Positions 26,356 through 45,854 of a DNA stretch of 64,000 bases are shown here, piece after piece (within the stretch, counting starts at the first letter, position 1; the number at the start of each line of letters is the position of its first letter). The position numbers were made by a program, and so were the translations under genes. The notes beneath the pieces are model-generated. The model did not search any database and was not told the origin of the DNA. It saw nothing but the letters and a program-made list of their open reading frames with translations. Source of the DNA: a virus (lineage: Duplodnaviria; Heunggongvirae; Uroviricota; Caudoviricetes); the IMG/VR virus record IMGVR_UViG_3300046002_003930, positions 1 to 64,000 of that record; one strand, 5' to 3'.

Positions 26356-26561
26356 GAGTAGAAGTTCGAAATGGCAATCTAGAGCGTGCCATGAAAGTGT
26401 TGAAGCGCAAGCTTGTTGATGACGGTATGTTCCGTGAACTCCAAGCACGTCAGGCCTATGAAAAGCCTAGCGATAAACGCAAACGTGAGCACACTAATGC
26501 AGTTCTAAGGCAGCGTAAAGCTGATAAAGAACGTACTGAACACATTCTACCCAACGTATAA
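26352..26561 (+). CDS. rpsU: 30S ribosomal protein S21 (bS21) homolog
   Basis: 69 aa; VEVRNGNLERAMKVLKRKLVDDGMFRELQARQAYEKPSDKRKRE aligns with the E. coli RpsU core (ALRRFKR...YEKPT.ERKR). Confidence 0.7.
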   Translation: MRVEVRNGNLERAMKVLKRKLVDDGMFRELQARQAYEKPSDKRKREHTNAVLRQRKADKERTEHILPNV

Positions 26562-26570
26562 GGAAAAACT

Positions 26571-26996
26571 ATGAATATTGCACTTGTTAAACACGACGGT
26601 ACGGCTCTTAATATGCCTGCTAAAAGCATCCAAGGTATTCTGCCTGTTGAACCAACCGAAGATGCGGCCGATCTAAACTCGGTTCTATTTTCCGGTTTCC
26701 GTGGCGGTGCCACTTTCTACCTTCAAGACTCTGCAAATGACGTCTTTGAGGCGATTAAGGCACAGTCAAAAGAAGTTGAGGGATGGGCACAGTTCTCTCA
26801 CATTATCGAAGGTCAGAACATCTATCTGAAAACTCCGCTGGTCGAAGGCTACGACGAAGTGAAGACCGCCGATGATATGTTTTATCGCGTTTGGGTCAAC
26901 AACGGAACCGGACTAGAGACTATGGAGACTTGTAAGCATACCCCAGAAAATCTAGAAGCATTGACTGCAGCTATTGCCGCGAAAGGTGTCGTTTAA
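26571..26996 (+). CDS. hypothetical protein
   Basis: RBS AAGGAAAAAC then ATG. Confidence 0.5.
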   Translation: MNIALVKHDGTALNMPAKSIQGILPVEPTEDAADLNSVLFSGFRGGATFYLQDSANDVFEAIKAQSKEVEGWAQFSHIIEGQNIYLKTPLVEGYDEVKTADDMFYRVWVNNGTGLETMETCKHTPENLEALTAAIAAKGVV

Positions 26997-27133
26997 TGTT
27001 CCATAAGCGAAAAGATAAGGGCTGTGAAGCTAAAATCATGGCTGTTGTAGGTGAGCGGGTTCTTATTGAATCCCGCTGGCCTAAAAATGGTCGGAATATC
27101 CTCTTCGTATCAAAAGATTATTTCCAGGAGCGT

Positions 27134-27338
27134 TATGGAATCGCCGCTTGACCCTAAGGTCGCCCATCAGATTAAGATGGCAGCAAAAGAAATGCTGCGA
27201 GCTCGACGCTATGAAACGGAGTATAATCCGATTTTGTATATTCCAGCAAATCTGAGCGCAAACCATCCAGATAGTGGTATGTCAATGGCAGACCACGAAA
27301 AGGAAAAAGAAGCAAGGAAAACCCAAAAAAGTTCTTGA
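27134..27338 (+). CDS. hypothetical protein
   Basis: RBS CAGGAGCG then ATG 27134; stop TGA lies inside the -35 TTGACT of the next promoter. Confidence 0.4.
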
Positions 27339-27363
27339 CTTTTTGGGCAGATCTTGCTATTAT
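27335..27363 (+). promoter_or_regulatory. T5-type promoter (TTGACT-17-TATTAT) driving the tmRNA locus
   Basis: AAAAAAGTTCTTGACTTTTTGGGCAGATCTTGCTATTATAAGAG. Confidence 0.65.
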
Positions 27364-27369
27364 AAGAGA

Positions 27370-27760
27370 TAGTCGTAGACGACTGATAAAGGCGTAAAAG
27401 ACGCGAGTTCGACTCTCGCCGCCTCCACCATAAGTCCATCCTAGAGCAGTTCGCGACCTTGCAGGGACAAGATAGCTCGAAAAGATGAAGTCCTGGCTCC
27501 TGCAAGAGTCGAAGCATATCTCCCTGTGGTAAGGGACGGATTCGTTTGGGGCGACGTTCGCTGGCATGGGCCGGTGTAGTGTAAGTATCTGGGTGGCTTT
27601 ATGATGGGGGCGACATGGCATTCGATTTTACGAGAAATAAACAGTAAGAGACTAGTGACTGGCAAAGTGCCATTTTAAATGCAAACGATAATGTTGCGTT
27701 TGAAGATTTCCGCGTAGCGGCTTAATCTTCTTGGGTCCGCGGGTACCTCGAAACAGAAAC
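27370..27760 (+). ncRNA. ssrA: circularly permuted (two-piece-type) tmRNA (ssrA). Acceptor piece about 27370-27430 ends in T-arm/acceptor/CCA; coding piece starts GGGGGCG at 27606; tag ORF 27681-27725 encodes ANDNVAFEDFRVAA-stop
   Basis: T-arm GCGAG-TTCGACT-CTCGC then CGCCTCC-A-CCA (27403-27430). Downstream GGGGGCGACAUGGCAUUCGAUUUUACG resembles the tmRNA 5' end GGGGCUG...GGAUUCGAC. P1 pairing GGGGGCG/CGCCUCC and P2 pairing UUUUACG(27626-32)/CGUAAAA(27393-99). Tag reading frame GCA AAC GAT AAT ... GTA GCG GCT TAA. Confidence 0.7.
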
Positions 27761-27783
27761 CCGTACTTAATTTTAGAGGAAAT

Positions 27784-27936
27784 ATGAAATACTCAATCGG
27801 TTACAGAAACGCCAAAGGGCACTTAGTTTGCGAACTTTTCCCTGACTGGCCCTCGACATTCAAGCGTCTTGAAGGGCTTGATCATTTAAGTAAGACGGTC
27901 TTCGAAATCGTCCAAGGAGAAGATGAACCTATTAGC
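27784..27936 (+). CDS. hypothetical small protein
   Basis: RBS AGAGGAAAT then ATG; 50 aa; stop overlaps start of the spanin gene. Confidence 0.4.
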
Positions 27937-37191: not shown

Positions 37192-37632
37192 ATGTCTTAT
37201 GAAAAACGCTTTCCCGATTGGGAACAACAAATAATTAACGCTGCAAATAGCACAGGTTCTGCTAGTGCTGCGGCCGCATTTTTAGGTATTAAATACGATA
37301 CCTATAGAAAATACGCACTCAGATACAACTGTTTAAAGACTAATCAGTCCGGAAAAGGAATAAGTAAAAAGTCTGCAAACAGCTACGCATTAGAAGATAT
37401 TTTGGCCGGAGAGCATCCGCAATATCCTAGTGCAAAACTAAGGGTGCGCTTGATTAAAGAAGATATATTTCCTGCAAAATGCAATAAATGTGGATTAGAA
37501 GAATGGTTAAATAAGCCCATCCCTCTAGAACTAGAGCATAAAGATGGGGATCATCATAATAATCTTTTAGAGAATTTAGAGCTATTATGTCCTAATTGTC
37601 ATGCTCAGACTGAGACTTATTGTAGAAAATAA
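37192..37632 (+). CDS. HNH homing endonuclease
   Basis: Promoter AATTCTTGACATAAATCAATATTTTTGGTATACTC upstream; CNKCG...LELEHKDGDHHNN...LLCPNCH HNH motif. Confidence 0.7.
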   Translation: MSYEKRFPDWEQQIINAANSTGSASAAAAFLGIKYDTYRKYALRYNCLKTNQSGKGISKKSANSYALEDILAGEHPQYPSAKLRVRLIKEDIFPAKCNKCGLEEWLNKPIPLELEHKDGDHHNNLLENLELLCPNCHAQTETYCRK

Positions 37633-37633
37633 T

Positions 37634-37709
37634 GCCCGTCTAGCCCAGCGGCAGAGGCACCAGACTTAAAATCTGTACAGGCTCGGTTCGAATCCGAGGA
37701 CGGGTACCA
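37634..37709 (+). tRNA. tRNA with anticodon TAA (Leu-type anticodon) but class-I short variable loop
   Basis: Acceptor GCCCGTC/GACGGGT, loop CTTAAAA, T-arm CTCGG-TTCGAAT-CCGAG, discriminator A, CCA encoded. Confidence 0.55.
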
Positions 37710-37879
37710 ATTCCAAGGGATACAATGTATAAAACAAGTTACACATATACTCTTAGAGATAAAATAGTCTCAGAAAGTTCGTCAGTGCCAATGGGTACGT
37801 TAGAGGACTTTAATAAGAAAGTTAACGCTATTCTTGATTATTATGGGCATAAGCCAAATTTCAAGTTTAGTGCAAGTTT

Positions 37880-37963
37880 TGGGTAGGTAAAGCCGATGGT
37901 TTCGGCACGGGGCCTGTAAAGCCTTTCCGCAAGGGAGTGATTCGATTTCGCACCTGCTCACCA
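37880..37963 (+). other. tRNA-like structured element (GTA anticodon-like loop, non-canonical T-arm, ends ...CTCACCA)
   Basis: Hairpins GCCGA-TGGTT-TCGGC and GGGGC-CTGTAAA-GCCTT; no consistent acceptor stem found. Confidence 0.3.
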
Positions 37964-37964
37964 T

Positions 37965-38035
37965 GCTAGAGTCCGGAGGACGGTTGCTGGGTTGTGTCCC
38001 CGGTGAATAGGTTTCGACTACCTACTCTAGTTCCA
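37965..38035 (+). tRNA. tRNA-like gene, possibly His (anticodon GTG), reduced D-arm
   Basis: Acceptor GCTAGAG/CTCTAGT, anticodon stem CTGGG/CCCGG loop TTGTGTC, T-arm TAGGT-TTCGACT-ACCTA, CCA encoded. Confidence 0.4.
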
Positions 38036-38039
38036 TAAT

Positions 38040-38232
38040 TTAGGATAGTTCAGCATACCAAATGTTTGCAATACAGAACCCGAAAGGGGCTATCCTGTTT
38101 AGTTTTAGAATGGTCCAGCAACTCAATTACTGTGATTGGTTCACAATTTGTCTTAGAAACAAACCTAGCGGGTTCAATTCCCGCGTAAAAACAACCATTC
38201 TGTTTTAAGGAGATACATATGCTTAAGGGATA
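38040..38232 (+). other. two further tRNA-like/structured elements (closed stem AGGATAG...CTATCCT around a GAAA-tetraloop hairpin; then a roughly 90-nt element with T-arm GCGGG-TTCAATT-CCCGC)
   Basis: Acceptor-like 7-bp closures and a canonical T-arm but no clean cloverleaf. Confidence 0.3.
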
Positions 38233-38267
38233 TATCATGTTATAGAGCACCAAGGAGGGCTCATAAC

Positions 38268-38537
38268 ATGAAGCAACAATATAAGATCAACACACCGTCA
38301 TGGTACCTCTACAATGGGGTATATGAGGAGTGGAAATCTAAAGGAATGTATGTCCATCGTTATCGCTGGATGCGCAACCCTAGAACACACCTTAATCGTA
38401 AGCGCCTCGCAGCGCACCCAGAGTTTACTCGCGGTAAGCAGCGAAAACTTCCTAGCAACTGGGATGACATGAACCTTTCGTTCAACCATTCCAACTGCTG
38501 GAAACGCTTCACTAAGAAGCGAAAACAACATTCTTAG
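38268..38537 (+). CDS. hypothetical basic protein
   Basis: RBS CAAGGAGGG then ATG; 89 aa, rich in K/R/W. Confidence 0.45.
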   Translation: MKQQYKINTPSWYLYNGVYEEWKSKGMYVHRYRWMRNPRTHLNRKRLAAHPEFTRGKQRKLPSNWDDMNLSFNHSNCWKRFTKKRKQHS

Positions 38538-38578
38538 GCTCCAGACCGCAACTCAATTAGCATTGTAAGCTCGTTGTT

Positions 38579-38635
38579 ATTGGTTCGATTCCAATATCCT
38601 CCACCACTGGGGAGGATTAGCTCAATTGGTAGAGC
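38579..38635 (+). ncRNA. anticodon-less, circularly closed tRNA-like module (T-arm - acceptor stem closed by 8-nt loop - D-arm); Y-RNA (YrlA-type) effector-domain candidate
   Basis: ATTGG-TTCGATT-CCAAT then ATCCTCC-ACCACTGG-GGAGGAT then TA then GCTC-AATTGGTA-GAGC. Acceptor strands perfectly complementary but in 3'-then-5' order; no anticodon arm. Confidence 0.45.
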
Positions 38636-38657
38636 ACGAAAAACAGGAACCTGTATT

Positions 38658-38690
38658 AAAACTCTTGACTTTGAAGCTGAAAGCTTCTAT
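38658..38690 (+). promoter_or_regulatory. T5-type promoter (TTGACT-17-TATACT) upstream of the Ro60-like gene, with a roughly 270-nt leader
   Basis: AAAACTCTTGACTTTGAAGCTGAAAGCTTCTATACTATTT. Confidence 0.55.
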
Positions 38691-38965
38691 ACTATTTAAA
38701 GACTTAGGGATAAGTACTGCACTACATTTATCGCAGGGTAATGCCTGTATTAAGCAAAGTTACTTAAATGTAACCCCACAGGATTTCAGCCGCTGTATAA
38801 ATACGGTTGACAGTAGATCGAGCTGTGTAAAACGATCGACACTATCCCGTACTAATTTAGAATGAAGACTGCAACTCAAAACTAACGGGGTTACCCGTTT
38901 CCAGGCTTGGGTACGCCACGAAAAGGCCCACAACATTCATTCTGTTCATAAAAAGGAAAACTACA

Positions 38966-40441
38966 ATGACCATGACTTTTGCTAACGCGGTTGCGCGTTC
39001 TAACGCTCCTTCGATGGATCGTGGATATACCCGTACCGAAAACGGTATGCGCTCTCTTAAGAGCACTCTTTCCGCGACTGTGGACCTCTTCGGGTCTCTA
39101 ACGCGAGGTAAGAACCTTGTTCCTGCTTTCGAAGCAGCTTTTCAGGAAAACCCTGATGTAGCTATGCGTCTGGCGCAGTATGCGCGTGACGTGCGTGGTG
39201 GACAAGGTGAACGTAAGATTTTCCGTGACTTTATGCTCCACCTTGAGCGTACTCGTCCCGACATTCTGGTGGATTCTAACATTCTGAAGAATGTTGCTGA
39301 AGTTGGTCGTTTCGACGATCTTCTGATCTTCTCTAACCCAGAAGTTAAAGCTGTTGCTTACACGATTGTTGCTAAGGCACTTTCGGAAGGTAACGGACTA
39401 GCTGCAAAGTGGATGCCTCGTAAGGGTGCAATCGCTATCGAGCTACGTAACTTCATGGAGCTTTCGCCTAAACAATATCGTAAGCTGCTAGTTCGGCTGA
39501 CGAATGTTGTTGAAACGCAAATGTGCGCACGCAACTGGAATGAGATTAACTTCTCGCACGTTCCTTCGGTTGCTATGTCGCGCTATATGACTGCGTTCCA
39601 CAAGCGCGCTCCTGAAGCCTTCGCGGCATTCAAGGCTGCCCTAGTTCGTGGCGACAAGGGTGTTAAGGTCAACGCTTCGGCTGTTTACCCACATGAAGTT
39701 GTTAAGCTGGCTGGCGGTGCTATGTCGTGCAACAACTACGGTAGCTATTCTCGTTTCAACGAGTATGGCGCTAAGGCTGAAAACCCAGTAGCCGAAGCTA
39801 TGTGGAAGGCCCTGCCTGACTACATGAACGGCGAAAGCGTTCTAGCTATGATCGACACTTCGGGGTCGATGGAAAGCAATTACTACAATACTTCGGTTCG
39901 TCCTCTGGACGCGGCTGTTTCTATTGGTCTGTATGTTGCTGAGCGTAGCAAGAACCCTGCTTTCCGTAACCTTATCCTTTCGTTCTCTGAGCGTCCGGAA
40001 ATTGTTAAGCTGGAAGGTAGCCTGGCCGCACGCCTGCATAGAATGTCGCAAGTTGCATGGGGTGGAAACACTAACCTGCACGCCGCATTCGATAAGATCC
40101 TAGACGTTGCTGTTAGCAACAACGTTCCAGAGTCTGAAATGCCAGGCACACTGCTAATCCTGTCGGATATGCAGTTTGATTCCTGCGCTCGTTACGATGA
40201 CACTGCTCTGCAGATGATGCGTCGTAAGTACGAAGCCGCGGGCTACACAATGCCTCGCATTGTGTTCTGGAACCTGAATGATAAGGGTGACAAACCAGTT
40301 CGTTTCGGCGAAAATGGAGTTGCTCTAGTCTCTGGCTTCTCGCCAGCAGTCATGAAGTCGGTGCTTGCATCGGACCTTGACAAGTTCACTCCAGAGAGCG
40401 TAATGCTCAAGGCCTTAATGGTCGATCGCTATAACTGGTGA
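38966..40441 (+). CDS. Ro60-like (TROVE-like helical N-region plus C-terminal vWA/MIDAS) RNA-binding protein candidate
   Basis: 491 aa; RBS AAAAGGAAAAC then ATG; C-terminal vWA with MIDAS LAMIDTSGSMES...; alpha-helical N-terminal two thirds; sits in the middle of the tRNA cluster. Confidence 0.5.
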   Translation: MTMTFANAVARSNAPSMDRGYTRTENGMRSLKSTLSATVDLFGSLTRGKNLVPAFEAAFQENPDVAMRLAQYARDVRGGQGERKIFRDFMLHLERTRPDILVDSNILKNVAEVGRFDDLLIFSNPEVKAVAYTIVAKALSEGNGLAAKWMPRKGAIAIELRNFMELSPKQYRKLLVRLTNVVETQMCARNWNEINFSHVPSVAMSRYMTAFHKRAPEAFAAFKAALVRGDKGVKVNASAVYPHEVVKLAGGAMSCNNYGSYSRFNEYGAKAENPVAEAMWKALPDYMNGESVLAMIDTSGSMESNYYNTSVRPLDAAVSIGLYVAERSKNPAFRNLILSFSERPEIVKLEGSLAARLHRMSQVAWGGNTNLHAAFDKILDVAVSNNVPESEMPGTLLILSDMQFDSCARYDDTALQMMRRKYEAAGYTMPRIVFWNLNDKGDKPVRFGENGVALVSGFSPAVMKSVLASDLDKFTPESVMLKALMVDRYNW

Positions 40442-40444
40442 TCA

Positions 40445-40540
40445 AAGATAGCGGAGTCCGATACCTTCCGAGGGTGTCCGGCTCCGCCGTCTCTCGGAAG
40501 TGATACGGTGGCTATAAAGTTATGCCACCTGTCACAATTT
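40445..40540 (+). other. multi-hairpin structured region immediately 3' of the Ro60-like gene
   Basis: GCGGAGTCCG...CGGCTCCGC, TTCCGAG...CTCGGAA, GGTGGC-TATAAAGTTAT-GCCACC. Confidence 0.35.
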
Positions 40541-40630
40541 TGCTCTGCCGAGCTGAACTAGGTGGACGGGCCTGACTGTTAATCAGGATACGCGAGGTTC
40601 GAATCCTCGCGGCAGAGCAAAATTGTGACT
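40531..40630 (+). tRNA. tRNA-Asn (anticodon GTT; body 40544-40617) embedded in a perfect 20-bp extended stem
   Basis: 5' GTCACAATTTTGCTCTGCCG ... 3' CGGCAGAGCAAAATTGTGAC are exact reverse complements; inner cloverleaf has anticodon stem CCTGA/TCAGG loop CTGTTAA and T-arm CGAGG-TTCGAAT-CCTCG; no encoded CCA. Confidence 0.65.
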
Positions 40631-40634
40631 TCAT

Positions 40635-40712
40635 GCACCCGTCGTCTAAATGGAATAGGATACCACACTTTCAATGTGGCAGATGCCGGTTCAAGTCCGG
40701 TCGGGTGTTCCA
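40635..40712 (+). tRNA. tRNA-Glu (anticodon TTC)
   Basis: Acceptor GCACCCG/CGGGTGT, anticodon stem CCACA/TGTGG loop CTTTCAA, T-arm GCCGG-TTCAAGT-CCGGT, CCA. Confidence 0.65.
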
Positions 40713-40717
40713 ACTTT

Positions 40718-40792
40718 GCCTCTATAGTGGTAATGGTAGCACGAGCCCTTGGTATGGGTTTAGTATAAGTTCAATTCTTATTGGAGGCACCA
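40718..40792 (+). tRNA. tRNA-Thr (anticodon GGT)
   Basis: Acceptor GCCTCTA/TGGAGGC, anticodon stem AGCCC/GGGTT loop TTGGTAT, T-arm ATAAG-TTCAATT-CTTAT, CCA overlapping the next ATG. Confidence 0.65.
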
Positions 40793-41034
40793 TGGATAAT
40801 ATTAAGCTATCAGACCAAACTCGTGAGATAGGTAAGCCTTCCAACTGGAATGAAGAAGTTCATGGAAGTTGTATTTCAATATCTGTACATGATCGCCATA
40901 CTTCTATAGGTAACTTTATGGTTACTGGATGGAAACCAACCTGTGGTGAACTAGAAGTTCTTAATCAGGACGGGCATATTTGGTTAGAAATTAACGGGGA
41001 AATTCACCCAGTGATTAAAATCTATGCAGCTTGA
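40792..41034 (+). CDS. hypothetical protein
   Basis: ATG overlaps tRNA CCA end (CACCATGG); 80 aa. Confidence 0.45.
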   Translation: MDNIKLSDQTREIGKPSNWNEEVHGSCISISVHDRHTSIGNFMVTGWKPTCGELEVLNQDGHIWLEINGEIHPVIKIYAA

Positions 41035-41227
41035 ATTCATTTGGTGCAGAGAATGTGGCAAAGTTATCTCTGATGACGAGTATGTTGTAAACTGGGGTAG
41101 TTGTTCAGACTGTTTCGATAAACACTATTTTTTATATTGCGAACTTAATCCGGAGCAGCTAGAGTTATATGAAAGTAAAGATTGGCAAGCCAAAAGAGAA
41201 TCAGAAAGTTTCGATTCAAATCCATGA
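41024..41227 (+). CDS. small Cys-rich protein
   Basis: CRECGKV...CSDCFDK zinc-ribbon-like. Confidence 0.4.
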   Translation: MQLEFIWCRECGKVISDDEYVVNWGSCSDCFDKHYFLYCELNPEQLELYESKDWQAKRESESFDSNP

Positions 41228-43619: not shown

Positions 43620-45020
43620 GGATTTGGCAGTATAGTGTCAATAAGGATAAGCACAGTAATGTGCCTAAAGGAAGAATTTCTACATACTTCCGCTAGAAAT
43701 AGTCCATCTATAAAAGCTTAGCTTAGGCCACCCGGAGTTGTCCGTAGGTTGCCCCATCTTCCAAGGTGGTGTATAGTAAGTCGAGTAATTTGCCCGGAAA
43801 CGGATAGGACAGAGCCAATCGGTGAGTCTAATGGAAGTAGCATTTCAGTGAATTCAGCTAAATCGGCGAATATAGAATAGCAATAAGTAGTTATATAGTT
43901 CGATCACGCAAGAAAGAGCATATGGCAGTATAAGCGAAGAAGGTGTAATAGCCCCAACCGTAAAGTACAGTTGAGTAGTCCGCAAGACGAAAGACAGGAG
44001 GTGTGTTGTATATTGTATCTAACAAGATATGAAGCAACAGAAGTAGCACATCTCGGTAGATTCGCAAATTGCAGAAATGGTAAATGCAACAGTTTTAGAT
44101 ACTGTAGATTCTAGGTTCGATCCCTAGTTTGTATAACAAAAGCGAAAGACTACTTCAGTATATTACGAAAGATGCTTAATACCTCACTTATGAATGGGGT
44201 CTTTGATAGCTCGCAAGGCTTGAGAAGTTGCTTGGATAGAGATCGTAAGGGTTTAGCGGCCCTGAACTGCCGGGAGGTAGGCGAAGGATAGAACGGCGAG
44301 TAGTAATGTATGATAGGTCAAAAGCCAGACCTTATAAACGGCAGCATTGAGAGATACTAGATAATTCTAGTGGATAACGGATTAACGTTCGCCCGCAAGC
44401 GAAACGGTACGGTTCAAAGGCTCTCACTAAACGGTGTAATCTCAGCCCGTTTGAAACTGCATAGATAATCTCAAAAGGGCTTATCTATTCAGTTTATATG
44501 AGTTAGGTCGATCAGGGATGACAGCAGCCTCCAAAACTGCCGAGGAGAGTTCGAGTCTCTCAACTCATGCCAATTAACTTAGGCAAGGAAAGTCAGGACG
44601 CTGAGCGGCGTAATTAACCGTAAACGGAGGATGGGCAAGTCTACTCCCGGCAAGGGACGAGGGCCAGATACCCCACCGGCCTAAGTTACAAAATTCGCAG
44701 AAGTACCGAACGCGGGAGGCATCTAGGGTCAGTGAGACGGCCCTAGGGAAAGCTGCCAGTAGGTCCGGAGATTAATTCTCACCTTGCTCTGGCTGCGATA
44801 CTTATTTACTCAACTACCTTGCAGCTGCGGGTCGCAATGTTGAGAACGTCGGGGCAAAACGTAAACCCTTACACCAATTCGCTTCGGGTTACCGACTAGA
44901 TTATAGGCAGGACCAAGCTTTACGTAAGCACCCTATAATAGCATTCGTTCCTGAACGTAAATCAGGTGGTGGAGCTGCCGGAAGGCGGCCTAGCGTCCCC
45001 GCGCTATATCGGGGCAAGTT
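43620..45020 (+). other. about 1.4-kb ORF-free tract inside the tRNA cluster (purine-rich first half, GC-rich second half) with dispersed T-arm-like motifs
   Basis: No plus-strand ORF of 60 aa or more; contains GGTTCGATCCCTAG (44108) and tRNA-Trp; repeated AGTCAGGAC(A/G)GCT motif at 44596 and 45037. Confidence 0.3.
44498..44572 (+). tRNA. tRNA-Trp (anticodon CCA)
   Basis: Acceptor ATGAGTT/AACTCAT, D-arm GTCG-ATCAGGGA-TGAC, loop CTCCAAA, T-arm GAGAG-TTCGAGT-CTCTC, CCA. Confidence 0.6.
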
Positions 45021-45759: not shown

Positions 45760-45854
45760 ACTAGTATAGCTTAATGGTTAGAGCGAGGAGCTTATACCTT
45801 CTGTATGCAGCGGATTACTGCGCGATCTCGGTTCGAGTCCGGGTACTAGTACCA
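45760..45854 (+). tRNA. tRNA with anticodon TAT (Ile/AUA-reading) and long extra arm
   Basis: Acceptor ACTAGTA/TACTAGT, D-arm GCTT-AATGGTTA-GAGC, anticodon stem AGGAG/CTTCT loop CTTATAC, extra arm GCAG-CGGATTA-CTGC, T-arm CTCGG-TTCGAGT-CCGGG, CCA. Confidence 0.5.

What the first reader, a model, noticed from the sequence alone, without database searches (positions are those of the whole stretch)
38540..40640. Ro60-like (TROVE/vWA) protein gene in the tRNA cluster, flanked by an anticodon-less tRNA-like module and a tRNA on an extended helix
The 491-aa product of 38966-40441 has a long helical N-terminal region and a C-terminal vWA domain with a MIDAS motif (MIDTSGSMES). That combination defines Ro60/Rsr.

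Bacterial and phage Ro60 orthologs work with Y RNAs encoded next to them, and Y RNAs carry a tRNA-like effector module.

RNA elements next to the gene:
- Directly upstream (38579-38635) is a T-arm, then a perfectly paired acceptor stem (ATCCTCC/GGAGGAT) closed by an 8-nt loop, then a canonical D-arm. It has no anticodon arm. This is the YrlA-type architecture.
- Upstream of that lie further aberrant tRNA-like elements (37880-38232).
- Directly downstream, a multi-hairpin region is followed by a tRNA-Asn whose acceptor stem is extended to a perfect 20-bp helix.

These could be a phage Ro60-Y RNA RNP system. Possible roles are tRNA or ncRNA quality control, or decoy/anti-defence functions.
Basis: partly seen in the sequence, partly recalled or inferred. 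Interest (0 to 1): 0.85.

Follow-up and report, generated by a model that had tools for sequence, protein, structure and literature searches.

The report
Phage Ro60-like protein with Y-RNAs
A phage gene for a ring-shaped RNA-binding protein of the Ro60 type sits beside a row of small structured RNAs, some of them tRNA mimics, that all share one conserved "handle"; the same protein-RNA pairing recurs in very different phages, including ones that infect E. coli and mycobacteria, and this handle is not in the Rfam RNA catalogue.

Summary

RNA "B" at 38535-38654 has a T-arm, a closed 7-bp acceptor stem and a D-arm. It scores 37.7 bits against Rfam YrlA (threshold 69). Across 25 homologues, 24 of 28 base pairs covary.

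New here: B is one of five tandem modules (38041-38944). Each has a closing stem (5'-UUAG.../...CUGU-3') and a loop motif, CNGCA(AC), around a variable top.

Evidence linking this scaffold to the gene:
- Every significant model hit lies on the gene's strand (119 and 100 hits).
- A module ends just upstream of the start codon in most related contigs.
- In the 64-kb window, significant hits occur only next to the gene.
- In an 87-kb Felixounavirus the pattern occurs four times, all within 1.2 kb of the gene.
- It also flanks the gene in mycobacteriophage Whirlwind and in Synechococcus, Ralstonia and Sinorhizobium phages.

Best reading: a phage Ro60-like/Y-RNA particle, a new variant of a known kind. 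Protein-RNA binding and function are inferred, not shown.

The parts
38966..40441 (+). Ro60-like protein gene (491 aa): N-terminal helical TROVE-like domain plus a C-terminal vWA domain with a complete MIDAS site. Sequence families: DUF2828 + DUF7788, PHROG 850.
38535..38654 (+). RNA module B, a YrlA-like tRNA mimic on the shared scaffold. Closing stem 38535-38542 / 38646-38653. Loop motif CCGCAACUCAA 38546-38556. Mini hairpin 38559-38571. Short stem 38571-38574 / 38636-38639. T-arm 38579-38595. Closed 7-bp acceptor 38596-38617 with a loop starting ACCA. D-arm 38620-38635.
   Evidence: Rfam YrlA 37.7 bits; own model R1 137.5 bits. Across 25 homologues 93.1% of cells are paired and 24 of 28 pairs change on both sides; slid controls give 38-46%.
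38106..38202 (+). RNA module A. Same scaffold: stem 38106-38114 / 38194-38202, motif CAGCAACUCAA 38116-38126. It carries a nearly complete tRNA-like top (38127-38189) with a 4-bp acceptor, D-arm, anticodon-type loop CUUAGAA and T-arm.
   Evidence: Rfam tRNA 31.3 bits with a truncated acceptor; stem found; R2 12.8 bits, E = 1.9; the homologous copy in L081 scores 32 bits.
38041..38097 (+). RNA module E, a minimal scaffold: stem 38041-38048 / 38090-38097, motif CAGCAUACCAA, small top hairpin.
   Evidence: R2 40.2 bits, E = 6e-7 in a filter-free scan of the whole window; fold.
38705..38849 (+). RNA module D. Long-range stem GGGAUA / UAUCCC around about 130 nt. The loop motif is degenerate here (CUGCAC) but intact (CAGCAACUCAA) in relatives.
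   Evidence: Alignment with five relatives: invariant GACTTAGGGATAAG and ATTATCCCGT; stems in relatives.
38665..38693 (+). Sigma-70-type promoter, TTGACT-17 nt-TATACT. It would start a transcript carrying D, C and the Ro60-like ORF.
   Evidence: Matches 10 of 12 consensus positions; TCTTGACTT is invariant in six relatives. Promoter activity is inferred.
38858..38944 (+). RNA module C. Scaffold stem 38858-38866 / 38936-38944, motif CUGCAACUCAA 38869-38879. It ends 21 nt before the ATG.
   Evidence: R2 27.1 bits, E = 8e-4. Equivalent modules end just upstream of the gene in most of the 80 IMG/VR loci.
40531..40629 (+). tRNA-Asn(GUU) embedded in a perfect 20-bp helix (40531-40550 / 40610-40629). 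Probably a precursor-processing stem. Not shown to belong to the Ro60-like system.
   Evidence: ARAGORN and Rfam; fold z = -7.2; flank pairing kept through base changes in L085 and L087, absent in L082 and L088.
37884..38036 (+). Two deviant tRNA-shaped elements. 37884-37966 aligns with the tRNA-Tyr(GUA) of relatives. 37967-38036 is conserved and ends in UCCA. Their link to the system is unclear.
   Evidence: Alignment; no ARAGORN or Rfam tRNA call.

Best explanation
The locus encodes a phage ribonucleoprotein of the Ro60/Y-RNA type.

The 491-aa protein is a divergent Ro60-like ring protein: a TROVE-like helical domain followed by a vWA domain with a MIDAS site. Upstream of it lie five tandem small RNAs (E, A, B, D, C). 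They share a 'handle' and differ in their tops.

The handle has three parts:
- a 7-9-bp closing stem with conserved ends, 5'-UUAG... and ...CUGU-3';
- a conserved single-stranded CNGCA(AC) motif on the 5' side of the internal loop;
- an A-rich 3' side of that loop.

The tops are a near-complete tRNA shape (A), a YrlA-like T-arm/closed acceptor/D-arm module (B), or plain hairpins (E, C, D).

Inferred mechanism:
1. The handle is the protein's binding site. It plays the part of the stem-bulge that Ro60 binds in Y RNAs.
2. The tRNA-like tops recruit or decoy tRNA-recognising host factors, such as nucleases, PNPase or defence effectors.
3. Module B has a 7-bp acceptor stem and an encoded ACCA. It is probably cut by RNase P in its acceptor loop, as M. 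smegmatis YrlA is. That would leave a two-piece tRNA mimic with a CCA end.
4. The module that abuts the start codon may also let the protein control its own translation.

Shown here: the protein fold, the RNA structures, and the tight two-way genomic coupling. Inferred: binding, processing and biological role.
For: Protein:
- Foldseek's only hits with E <= 1e-3 are eight Ro60/TROVE chains, aligned over the full length.
- The MIDAS residues are invariant. The profile aligns the family's MIDAS stretch (consensus VDVSGSM; MIDTSGSM in the window protein) with VDVSASM of human Ro60.

RNA B:
- 93.1% of cells are paired, against 67.2% in shuffles. 24 of 28 pairs change on both sides.
- All seven acceptor-stem pairs and seven of the eight closing-stem pairs covary.

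Shared handle:
- The exact 9-mer GCAACTCAA occurs three times in 64 kb, all on the + strand, at 38118, 38548 and 38871.
- In 28 minimal modules the closing stem is 91.5% paired, against 25-41% in slid controls.

Coupling to the gene:
- All 119 R1 hits and all 100 R2 hits are on the gene's strand.
- A module ends just upstream of the start codon in most of the 80 IMG/VR loci.
- A filter-free scan of the whole window gives significant hits only at 38034-38952.
- Reverse test from an 18-nt RNA motif: 29 of 36 hits with at least 4.5 kb of downstream sequence have the gene. In 28 of them it is downstream on the same strand.
- In Felixounavirus AYO145A the pattern occurs exactly four times in 87,372 bp, all 0.3-1.1 kb downstream of the gene.
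- Modules also flank the gene in mycobacteriophage Whirlwind (70 bits) and in Synechococcus, Ralstonia and Sinorhizobium phages.

Precedents from the literature:
- YrlA RNAs are encoded next to Ro60. M. smegmatis YrlA, which has a 7-bp acceptor stem, is cleaved by RNase P and gains CCA (PMC4201824).
- Phage phiLo Ro60 binds two upstream Yrl RNAs and host PNPase (PMC12135203).
- Gp130 of the Felixounavirus Bas63 is structurally Ro60-like, sits directly upstream of the tRNA genes, and counters the Ppl defence system (PMC11482910).
Against: - No binding or expression data exist for this protein family with these RNAs.
- No sequence-level TROVE match was found. The profile against PDB sequences reaches Ro60 only at E = 0.63.
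- The AF2 model has medium confidence (pLDDT 74.7, TM 0.35-0.54 to Ro60 structures), so ring closure was not verified.
- The handle does not resemble the known Ro60-binding helix. A CGAA motif is present in B and C but is not conserved across the family.
- Modules are interspersed among tRNA genes in several phages, which also fits a role in processing tRNA precursors.
- Ochrobactrum phage OC has the gene but no detected module within +/-4 kb.
- Many of the IMG/VR loci are close relatives of one another, so the counts are not independent events.
Confidence: 0.68

Rival explanations
1. The modules are cis-acting processing or stability elements of the long tRNA-array transcripts, such as RNase E, RNase III or RNase P entry sites or protective stems. 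On this reading they work without the Ro60-like protein, and the two co-occur only because both belong to phage tRNA clusters.
For: - Modules often sit directly between tRNA genes in relatives and in Ralstonia phage RSP15.
- Their flanks are U-rich (UUUUAG......CUGUUUA).
- The tRNA-Asn next door has its own precursor helix.
Against: - In the window the tRNA array spans 32.6-47.0 kb, yet every significant module lies in the 1.1 kb upstream of the gene.
- In Felixounavirus all four copies lie within 1.2 kb of the gene, although tRNAs continue for another 4 kb.
- The module abutting the start codon is the most conserved position.
- Whirlwind has three modules next to the gene; the only tRNA in that 9.4-kb stretch lies about 2.7 kb upstream of them.
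Confidence: 0.14
2. The modules act only in cis, as a regulatory leader of the Ro60-like mRNA, and are not trans-acting Y RNAs. The protein or a host factor would bind the handle next to the ribosome-binding site to set translation.
For: - A minimal module ends about 10-20 nt before the start codon in most loci, directly before the Shine-Dalgarno sequence.
- A conserved promoter precedes modules D and C and the ORF.
Against: - Many modules lie far from the start codon, up to several kb away, or downstream of the gene, as in Whirlwind, Felixounavirus and Synechococcus phage.
- Modules A and B lie upstream of the promoter and of an intervening ORF.
- Elaborate covarying tRNA mimicry is not needed for a leader.
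Confidence: 0.12
3. The elements are decaying tRNA pseudogenes or recombination debris in a tRNA cluster and have no function of their own.
For: - Phage tRNA arrays do contain pseudo-tRNAs; several are annotated in Felixounavirus.
- 37884-38036 looks like degraded tRNA-Tyr-type sequence.
Against: - Compensatory changes occur in 24 of 28 pairs of B and in the closing stems.
- The non-tRNA handle is conserved from mycobacteriophages to coliphages.
- Strand and position are strictly coupled to the gene.
Confidence: 0.03

Closest known systems
Bacterial Rsr (Ro60) with YrlA/YrlB Y RNAs (Rfam RF02553; Chen et al. 2014, PMC4201824), especially M. smegmatis YrlA
   Same: - A Ro60-fold protein with a vWA/MIDAS domain.
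- One or more small RNAs encoded within a few kb on the same strand.
- A tRNA-like module built from a T-arm, an acceptor-like hairpin and a D-arm, with the RNA termini at the anticodon-stem position.
- Several different Y RNAs per locus.
- A 7-bp acceptor stem, as in M. smegmatis YrlA, which RNase P cleaves and which then receives CCA.
   Different: - The protein belongs to Pfam DUF2828/DUF7788, not TROVE, at sequence level.
- The Rfam YrlA model matches only the tRNA-like part: 37.7 bits here and 33-39 bits in relatives, against a threshold of 69.
- The terminal stem and loop are a different, separately conserved handle (UUAG-stem, CNGCA(AC), A-rich 3' side).
- The handle is reused by up to five tandem modules, including one (A) where it is attached at the acceptor end of a tRNA shape.
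- The acceptor loop encodes NCCA and tolerates 75-190-nt inserts.
Thermus phage phiLo Ro60 with Yrl1/Yrl2 (PMC12135203; PDB 9kop, 9l5y)
   Same: - Two Y-like RNAs directly upstream of the gene.
- A stem / large internal loop / stem architecture.
   Different: - phiLo Ro60 is recognisable as TROVE by sequence.
- Its Yrl RNAs are defined by a CGAA motif and are not described as tRNA mimics or as sharing the CNGCA handle.
- Sequence identity to the protein here is about 16%.
Felixounavirus Bas63 gp130 (PhageMaP preprint, PMC11482910)
   Same: - Described as structurally Ro60-like and placed directly upstream of the tRNA genes.
- This matches the position of the 38%-identical homologue in Felixounavirus AYO145A.
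- The authors guessed that some 'tRNA genes' there might be Y RNAs.
   Different: - That work names no RNA partner.
- Four handle-bearing modules are located here in a Felixounavirus, and they are not among its annotated tRNAs.
- Identity of gp130 with this family is inferred from taxonomy and gene position. It was not tested directly.
Metazoan Ro60 with Y RNAs
   Same: A ring protein plus small RNAs with a conserved protein-binding stem and variable effector loops.
   Different: Metazoan Y RNAs have no tRNA-like module, the binding helix differs, and the biology is cellular rather than viral.

Membership tests
Ro60 / Rsr (TROVE + vWA proteins) | Sequence match to the Pfam TROVE domain (PF05731) | tested here: not met
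   hmmscan at E <= 1 lists DUF7788, DUF2828, VWA_2 and RPAP3_C, but not TROVE. phmmer against PDB finds nothing. The family profile reaches human Ro60 only at E = 0.63, and only in the MIDAS stretch.
Ro60 / Rsr (TROVE + vWA proteins) | TROVE-type helical-repeat fold N-terminal to the vWA domain | tested here: met
   [not shown]
Ro60 / Rsr (TROVE + vWA proteins) | C-terminal vWA domain with a MIDAS motif (DxSxS...T...D) | tested here: met
   [not shown]
Ro60 / Rsr (TROVE + vWA proteins) | Closed ring with a central cavity; binds Y RNA on the outer surface | not testable with these tools
Pfam DUF2828 + DUF7788 / PHROG 850 ('RNA-binding protein', 'Ro-like RNA binding protein' in phage annotations) | Significant matches to both Pfam models and to the PHROG profile over the full length | tested here: met
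   DUF7788 1.2e-48 and DUF2828 2.6e-28. phrog_850 2.2e-135 over residues 5-491. Homologues occur in 711 phage records, some annotated 'Ro-like RNA binding protein'.
YrlA (Rfam RF02553) | Score at or above Rfam's gathering threshold (69 bits) | tested here: not met
   37.7 bits at 38556-38663. Homologous RNAs in relatives score 29-39 bits.
YrlA (Rfam RF02553) | tRNA-like module in the order T-arm, acceptor-like hairpin, D-arm | tested here: met
   The module is aligned by the Rfam model. The T-arm is 100% paired, the acceptor 94.2% paired with 7 of 7 pairs covarying, and the D-arm 97% paired across 25 sequences.
YrlA (Rfam RF02553) | Encoded within about 4 kb of the Ro60 gene on the same strand (criterion of Chen et al. 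2014) | tested here: met
   It lies 312 nt upstream on the same strand. All 119 and 100 homologous model hits are on the gene's strand.
YrlA (Rfam RF02553) | YrlA-type terminal stems with the GNCGAAN0-1G motif (Ro60-binding module) | tested here: inconclusive
   The Rfam stem positions are mostly deleted or mismatched in the alignment. CACGAAAAAC is present in B, but relatives have CGUAAAA, GCUAAAA or GUCGUAAAA instead. A different handle is conserved in its place.
YrlA (Rfam RF02553) | Physically bound by the Ro60 orthologue; carries tRNA-type modifications | not testable with these tools
   Needs immunoprecipitation and modification mapping.
tRNA (RF00005) | Complete cloverleaf with a 7-bp open acceptor stem and an anticodon arm | tested here: not met
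   ARAGORN calls nothing between 37709 and 40544. Module A scores 31.3 bits but has only a 4-bp acceptor closed off by the scaffold. Module B has a closed acceptor stem.

The most novel reading that the evidence does not exclude
The handle (closing stem UUAG.../...CUGU plus the CNGCA(AC) loop) is the specific ligand of a large, previously orphan branch of Ro60-like phage proteins (DUF2828/PHROG 850, present in at least 711 sequenced phages). It defines a new RNA class: modular 'handle + cargo' RNAs. Their cargoes include two-piece, CCA-ended tRNA mimics produced by RNase P cleavage. Phages would deploy them from their tRNA clusters as decoys or adaptors against tRNA-directed or nuclease-based host defences such as Ppl.
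Probability: 0.4. Interest if true: 0.8.

Novelty: new variant of a known kind. Interest (0 to 1): 0.62.

Why it matters
Ro60/Y-RNA particles are well known in animals and bacteria, and one phage example has a solved structure. The much larger DUF2828 branch of Ro60-like phage proteins has had no identified RNA partner. It is present in Felix O1-like, Listeria, Staphylococcus, Vibrio, Campylobacter and mycobacterial phages. One preprint could only guess that some neighbouring 'tRNA genes' might be Y RNAs.

The conserved handle found here does three things:
- It gives concrete, unannotated RNA candidates in tractable phage-host pairs: E. coli Felixounavirus, where the related Bas63 gp130 counters the Ppl defence, and M. 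smegmatis phage Whirlwind.
- It suggests what the protein recognises.
- It offers a covariance model for annotating these RNAs, which at least once are overlapped by a called 'hypothetical protein' gene.

It also shows one protein-binding handle attached to several kinds of cargo RNA. That makes the tether/decoy model of Y RNAs directly testable in phage infection.

Tried and rejected
- Nucleotide search of 37600-41100 against 50,697 phage records found no match, so the phage is not a sequenced isolate.
- phmmer and a family-profile search against PDB sequences found no significant Ro60 match. Structure prediction was needed to see the relationship.
- A promoter reading of the repeated 'TTTAGAATG...GCAACTCAA' was considered. 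It was dropped because the TTAG-proximal bases pair with a covarying partner 50-270 nt downstream.
- Two foldings of module B's 5' region were compared: an anticodon-like mini hairpin and a YrlA-type short stem.
  - The short stem is 80% paired across 25 sequences.
  - The hairpin exists in 13 of 25.
  - They overlap by one base in the window and can largely coexist, so no choice was forced.
- An Rfam scan at E <= 10 over 37600-40700 and 37870-38045 found no known family for modules A, C, D and E beyond a tRNA hit in A. A LOOT hit at 40424-40523 (E = 1.2) was treated as noise.
- Pfam and PHROG searches of eight neighbouring ORFs were uninformative, apart from an HNH endonuclease.
- The supplement of Chen et al. 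2014, which lists the phages examined, is not held. The Sim et al. 2020 review is not held either.
- Literature searches for DUF2828, and for Ro-like + phage + Y RNA, found no description of these RNAs. The library is incomplete, so prior description cannot be excluded.
- Model R1 on Ochrobactrum phage OC found no module.
Full report
**Context.** The window looks like part of a large phage genome.
- It carries 29 tRNA genes between 32.6 and 47.0 kb.
- It also carries a permuted tmRNA and a GOLLD RNA.
- It has no close nucleotide relative among 50,697 sequenced phages.

**The protein.**

Sequence level:
- ORF 38966-40441 (+) encodes 491 aa.
- Pfam gives DUF7788 (1.2e-48, residues 292-469), DUF2828 (2.6e-28) and a sub-threshold VWA_2 match. 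There is no TROVE hit even at E <= 1.
- PHROG 850, 'RNA-binding protein', matches end to end at 2.2e-135.
- Sequence searches against PDB chains find nothing significant. The family profile touches human Ro60 only at E = 0.63. There it aligns the family's MIDAS stretch (consensus VDVSGSM) with Ro60's VDVSASM.

Fold level:
- An AlphaFold2 model built from 35 homologues has pLDDT 74.7 and pTM 0.66.
- With Foldseek, the only eight PDB hits at E <= 1e-3 are all Ro60 proteins: the phage phiLo TROVE protein, Xenopus and human Ro60, and D. radiodurans Rsr. They align over 512-588 columns.
- The N-terminal helical half is therefore TROVE-like in fold.
- The MIDAS residues D297, S299, S301, T369 and D401 are invariant.

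Distribution:
- tblastn finds it in 711 phage records, all below 60% identity. They include Felixounaviruses and Listeria, Staphylococcus, Vibrio, Campylobacter and Mycobacterium phages.
- A few are annotated 'Ro-like RNA binding protein' or 'Ro sixty-related'.

- The T-arm (38579-38595), the closed acceptor ATCCTCC-ACCACTGG-GGAGGAT (38596-38617) and the D-arm (38620-38635) are as described.
- Rfam's YrlA model aligns to 38556-38663 at 37.7 bits, E = 5e-6 for the region. That is well under the 69-bit gathering score. The match is good only in the tRNA-like part.
- Relatives at 66-87% protein identity were fetched and aligned. The T-arm is invariant. The acceptor stem changes by compensation: ATCCTCC/GGAGGAT, ATTCCCC/GGGGAAT, ACCCTTC/GAAGGGT, ACCCTCC/GGAGGGT, ATCCCCC/GGGGGAT.
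- An outer stem, AGGYTCC (38536-38542) with GGAACCT (38646-38652), closes the whole RNA.
- A covariance model (R1) found 25 clear homologues, including four in cultured phages. On their alignment:
  - 93.1% of cells are paired, against 67.2% in shuffles and 38-46% when partners are slid.
  - 24 of 28 pairs change on both sides.
  - All 7 acceptor pairs and 7 of 8 closing-stem pairs covary.
- The alignment was fitted to the model, which favours it. The margins are nevertheless large.
- The acceptor loop begins NCCA in 16 of 25 sequences. In eight sequences it holds a 75-190-nt hairpin insert.
- M. smegmatis YrlA also has a 7-bp acceptor stem. It is cleaved by RNase P in vivo and in vitro, and its 5' half gains CCA (PMC4201824). 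I infer the same for module B. That would explain why this loop tolerates any insert.
- A 3-bp hairpin with a 7-nt loop (38559-38571) precedes the T-arm in the window and in 13 of 25 homologues. 'No anticodon arm' is therefore only partly true.

- The exact 9-mer GCAACTCAA occurs three times in the 64-kb window, all on the + strand, at 38118, 38548 and 38871.
- Each copy lies 5-6 nt after a strand beginning (U)UUAG. That strand pairs with a partner 50-100 nt downstream which ends CUGU.
- Five tandem modules follow this plan:

| Module | Coordinates | Top / notes |
|---|---|---|
| E | 38041-38097 | Minimal hairpin |
| A | 38106-38202 | Near-complete tRNA shape with a 4-bp acceptor; Rfam tRNA 31.3 bits |
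| B | 38535-38654 | YrlA-like T-arm / closed acceptor / D-arm |
| D | 38705-38849 | Loop motif degenerate here, intact in relatives |
| C | 38858-38944 | Hairpins; ends 21 nt before the ATG |

- Relatives have a sixth module that is deleted in the window.
- A conserved sigma-70-type promoter, TTGACT-17-TATACT (38665-38693), precedes D, C and the ORF.
- In 28 minimal modules from different contigs:
  - CNGCA and the 3' CUG are invariant.
  - The closing stem is 91.5% paired, against 76% in shuffles and 25-41% in slid controls.
  - Five of eight pairs change on both sides.
- None of this matches any Rfam 15 family, in the window or in cultured phages.

**Coupling of the handle to the gene.**
- Model R1 gave 119 hits and model R2 (the minimal handle) gave 100 hits across about 0.65 Mb of related loci. 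Every one is on the gene's strand.
- In most of the 80 IMG/VR loci, a minimal module ends about 10-20 nt before the start codon, directly ahead of the Shine-Dalgarno sequence.
- A filter-free R2 scan of the entire window found significant hits only at 38034-38105 and 38851-38952, plus a weak hit at module A. The tRNA array itself spans 14 kb.
- Reverse test: an 18-nt handle pattern hits 111 stretches in IMG/VR, of which the 80 returned loci (91 hits) were analysed.
  - Of 36 hits with at least 4.5 kb of downstream sequence, 29 have the gene in the locus.
  - In 28 of those it is downstream on the same strand.
  - In all 48 co-occurrences the strands agree.
- Cultured phages:
  - Mycobacteriophage Whirlwind: three modules in the unannotated gap just after its 'Ro-like RNA binding protein' gene (R1 70 bits).
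  - Synechococcus phage BUCT-ZZ01, Ralstonia phage RSP15 and Sinorhizobium phage phiM12: modules beside the gene.
  - Felixounavirus AYO145A: the pattern AGAAGACC-N-CAGCAA...GGTCTGG occurs exactly four times in 87,372 bp. All four are on the + strand at 26552-27355, 0.3-1.1 kb downstream of the gene. One of them carries a B-type tRNA mimic.
  - Ochrobactrum phage OC: none detected.
- Caveat: many of the metagenomic loci are related to one another, so the counts overstate the number of independent events. The cross-phylum recurrence is the stronger argument.

**Downstream elements.**
- After the stop codon comes a strong hairpin (40446-40492), then a second hairpin.
- Next is tRNA-Asn, on a perfect 20-bp helix (40531-40550 / 40610-40629). 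The region folds at z = -7.2.
- tRNA-Asn follows the gene in all five close relatives.
- The flank pairing survives base changes in L085 and L087, is only partial in L081, and is absent in L082 and L088.
- The helix lacks the handle motif. I read it as a precursor-processing stem and cannot tie it to the protein.

**Upstream of module E.**
- 37884-37966 aligns with the bona fide tRNA-Tyr(GUA) of relatives.
- 37967-38036 is a conserved tRNA-shaped element ending in UCCA.
- Neither gets an ARAGORN or Rfam call.

**Mechanism.**

Shown:
- a Ro60-like fold;
- covarying RNA structures;
- a conserved handle;
- strict two-way genomic linkage.

Inferred:
- The handle is the protein's binding site, the analogue of the stem-bulge that Ro60 binds in Y RNAs.
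- The tops act as effector or decoy modules. The tRNA mimics could recruit or distract tRNA-recognising nucleases or PNPase. Precedents are the bacterial Rsr-Y RNA-PNPase complex and the phiLo Ro60-Yrl-PNPase complex, which dampens PNPase (PMC4201824, PMC12135203).
- The start-proximal module may give feedback on translation.
- A functional lead comes from the Felixounavirus Bas63. Its Ro60-like gp130, placed directly upstream of the tRNA genes, counters the Ppl defence (PMC11482910). That gp130 belongs to this family is inferred from taxonomy and gene position.

**Comparison and novelty.**
- In function this is a Ro60/Y-RNA system.
- In membership it fails the sequence thresholds of both TROVE and YrlA. 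It belongs to the DUF2828/PHROG 850 branch.
- Phage Ro60 with Y-like RNAs is known from mycobacteriophages (2014) and phiLo (2025).
- New here, as far as Rfam 15 and the searchable literature show:
  - specific RNA partners are assigned to the DUF2828 branch;
  - a common handle is shared by multiple cargo types;
  - the handle spans distant phage lineages.
- I rate it a new variant of a known kind, with interest 0.62.

Noticed in passing
window 43998-44448 (+): GOLLD RNA (Rfam RF02032, 171.8 bits against a threshold of 150). It encloses a tRNA-Leu(UAG) gene at 44061-44137, inside the same tRNA cluster.
   Followed up: no
window 27338-27816 (+): Permuted (two-piece) tmRNA with tag peptide ANDNVAFEDFRVAA. 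Relatives L003, L004 and L009 carry one near their Ro60-like gene too.
   Followed up: no
window 37884-38036 (+): Two tRNA-shaped elements that neither ARAGORN nor the Rfam tRNA model calls. The first aligns with the genuine tRNA-Tyr(GUA) of four relatives. The second has a 7-bp acceptor, a loop UUGUGUC and a T-loop UUCGACU, ends in UCCA, and is conserved in L082, L085 and L087. The window has no called tRNA-Tyr or tRNA-His.
   Followed up: partly
window 40531-40629 (+): tRNA-Asn sits on a perfect 20-bp helix formed by its 5' leader and 3' trailer. There is no encoded CCA. The flank pairing is kept through base changes in L085 and L087. It may be an RNase III-type processing stem.
   Followed up: partly
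L085 3465-3600, L087 3425-3580, L088 3405-3570, L009 2469-2670, L049 2496-2763, L040 2188-2458, L004 2433-2703, L050 2549-2734: The acceptor loop of the YrlA-like RNA carries 75-190-nt inserts that themselves form long hairpins. They come directly after an encoded NCCA. This suggests the loop is excised.
   Followed up: partly
L207 (Escherichia phage AYO145A) 26552-27355: Four unannotated handle-bearing RNAs lie between tRNA genes. The annotated minus-strand 'hypothetical protein' AVT61_gp131 (27195-27452) overlaps two of them and may be a miscall.
   Followed up: partly
window 38268-38537 (+): A very basic 89-aa ORF lies between modules A and B. It is conserved in L081 and L082 and matches only PHROG 12793. 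Its TAG stop codon forms the base of module B's closing stem.
   Followed up: partly
window 37192-37632 (+): An HNH homing-endonuclease ORF is inserted between the two tRNA-Leu genes. Relatives carry HNH or GIY-YIG genes at other positions around the Ro60-like gene.
   Followed up: no
window 45760-45854 (+): ARAGORN reports a 95-nt tRNA-Ile with anticodon UAU. That is unusually long for a class I tRNA and may indicate an insert or intron.
   Followed up: no
L094 (Mycobacterium phage Whirlwind) 5445-5699: Three handle modules, one of them B-type at 70 bits, fill the unannotated 380-nt gap after gene 55 ('Ro-like RNA binding protein').
   Followed up: partly
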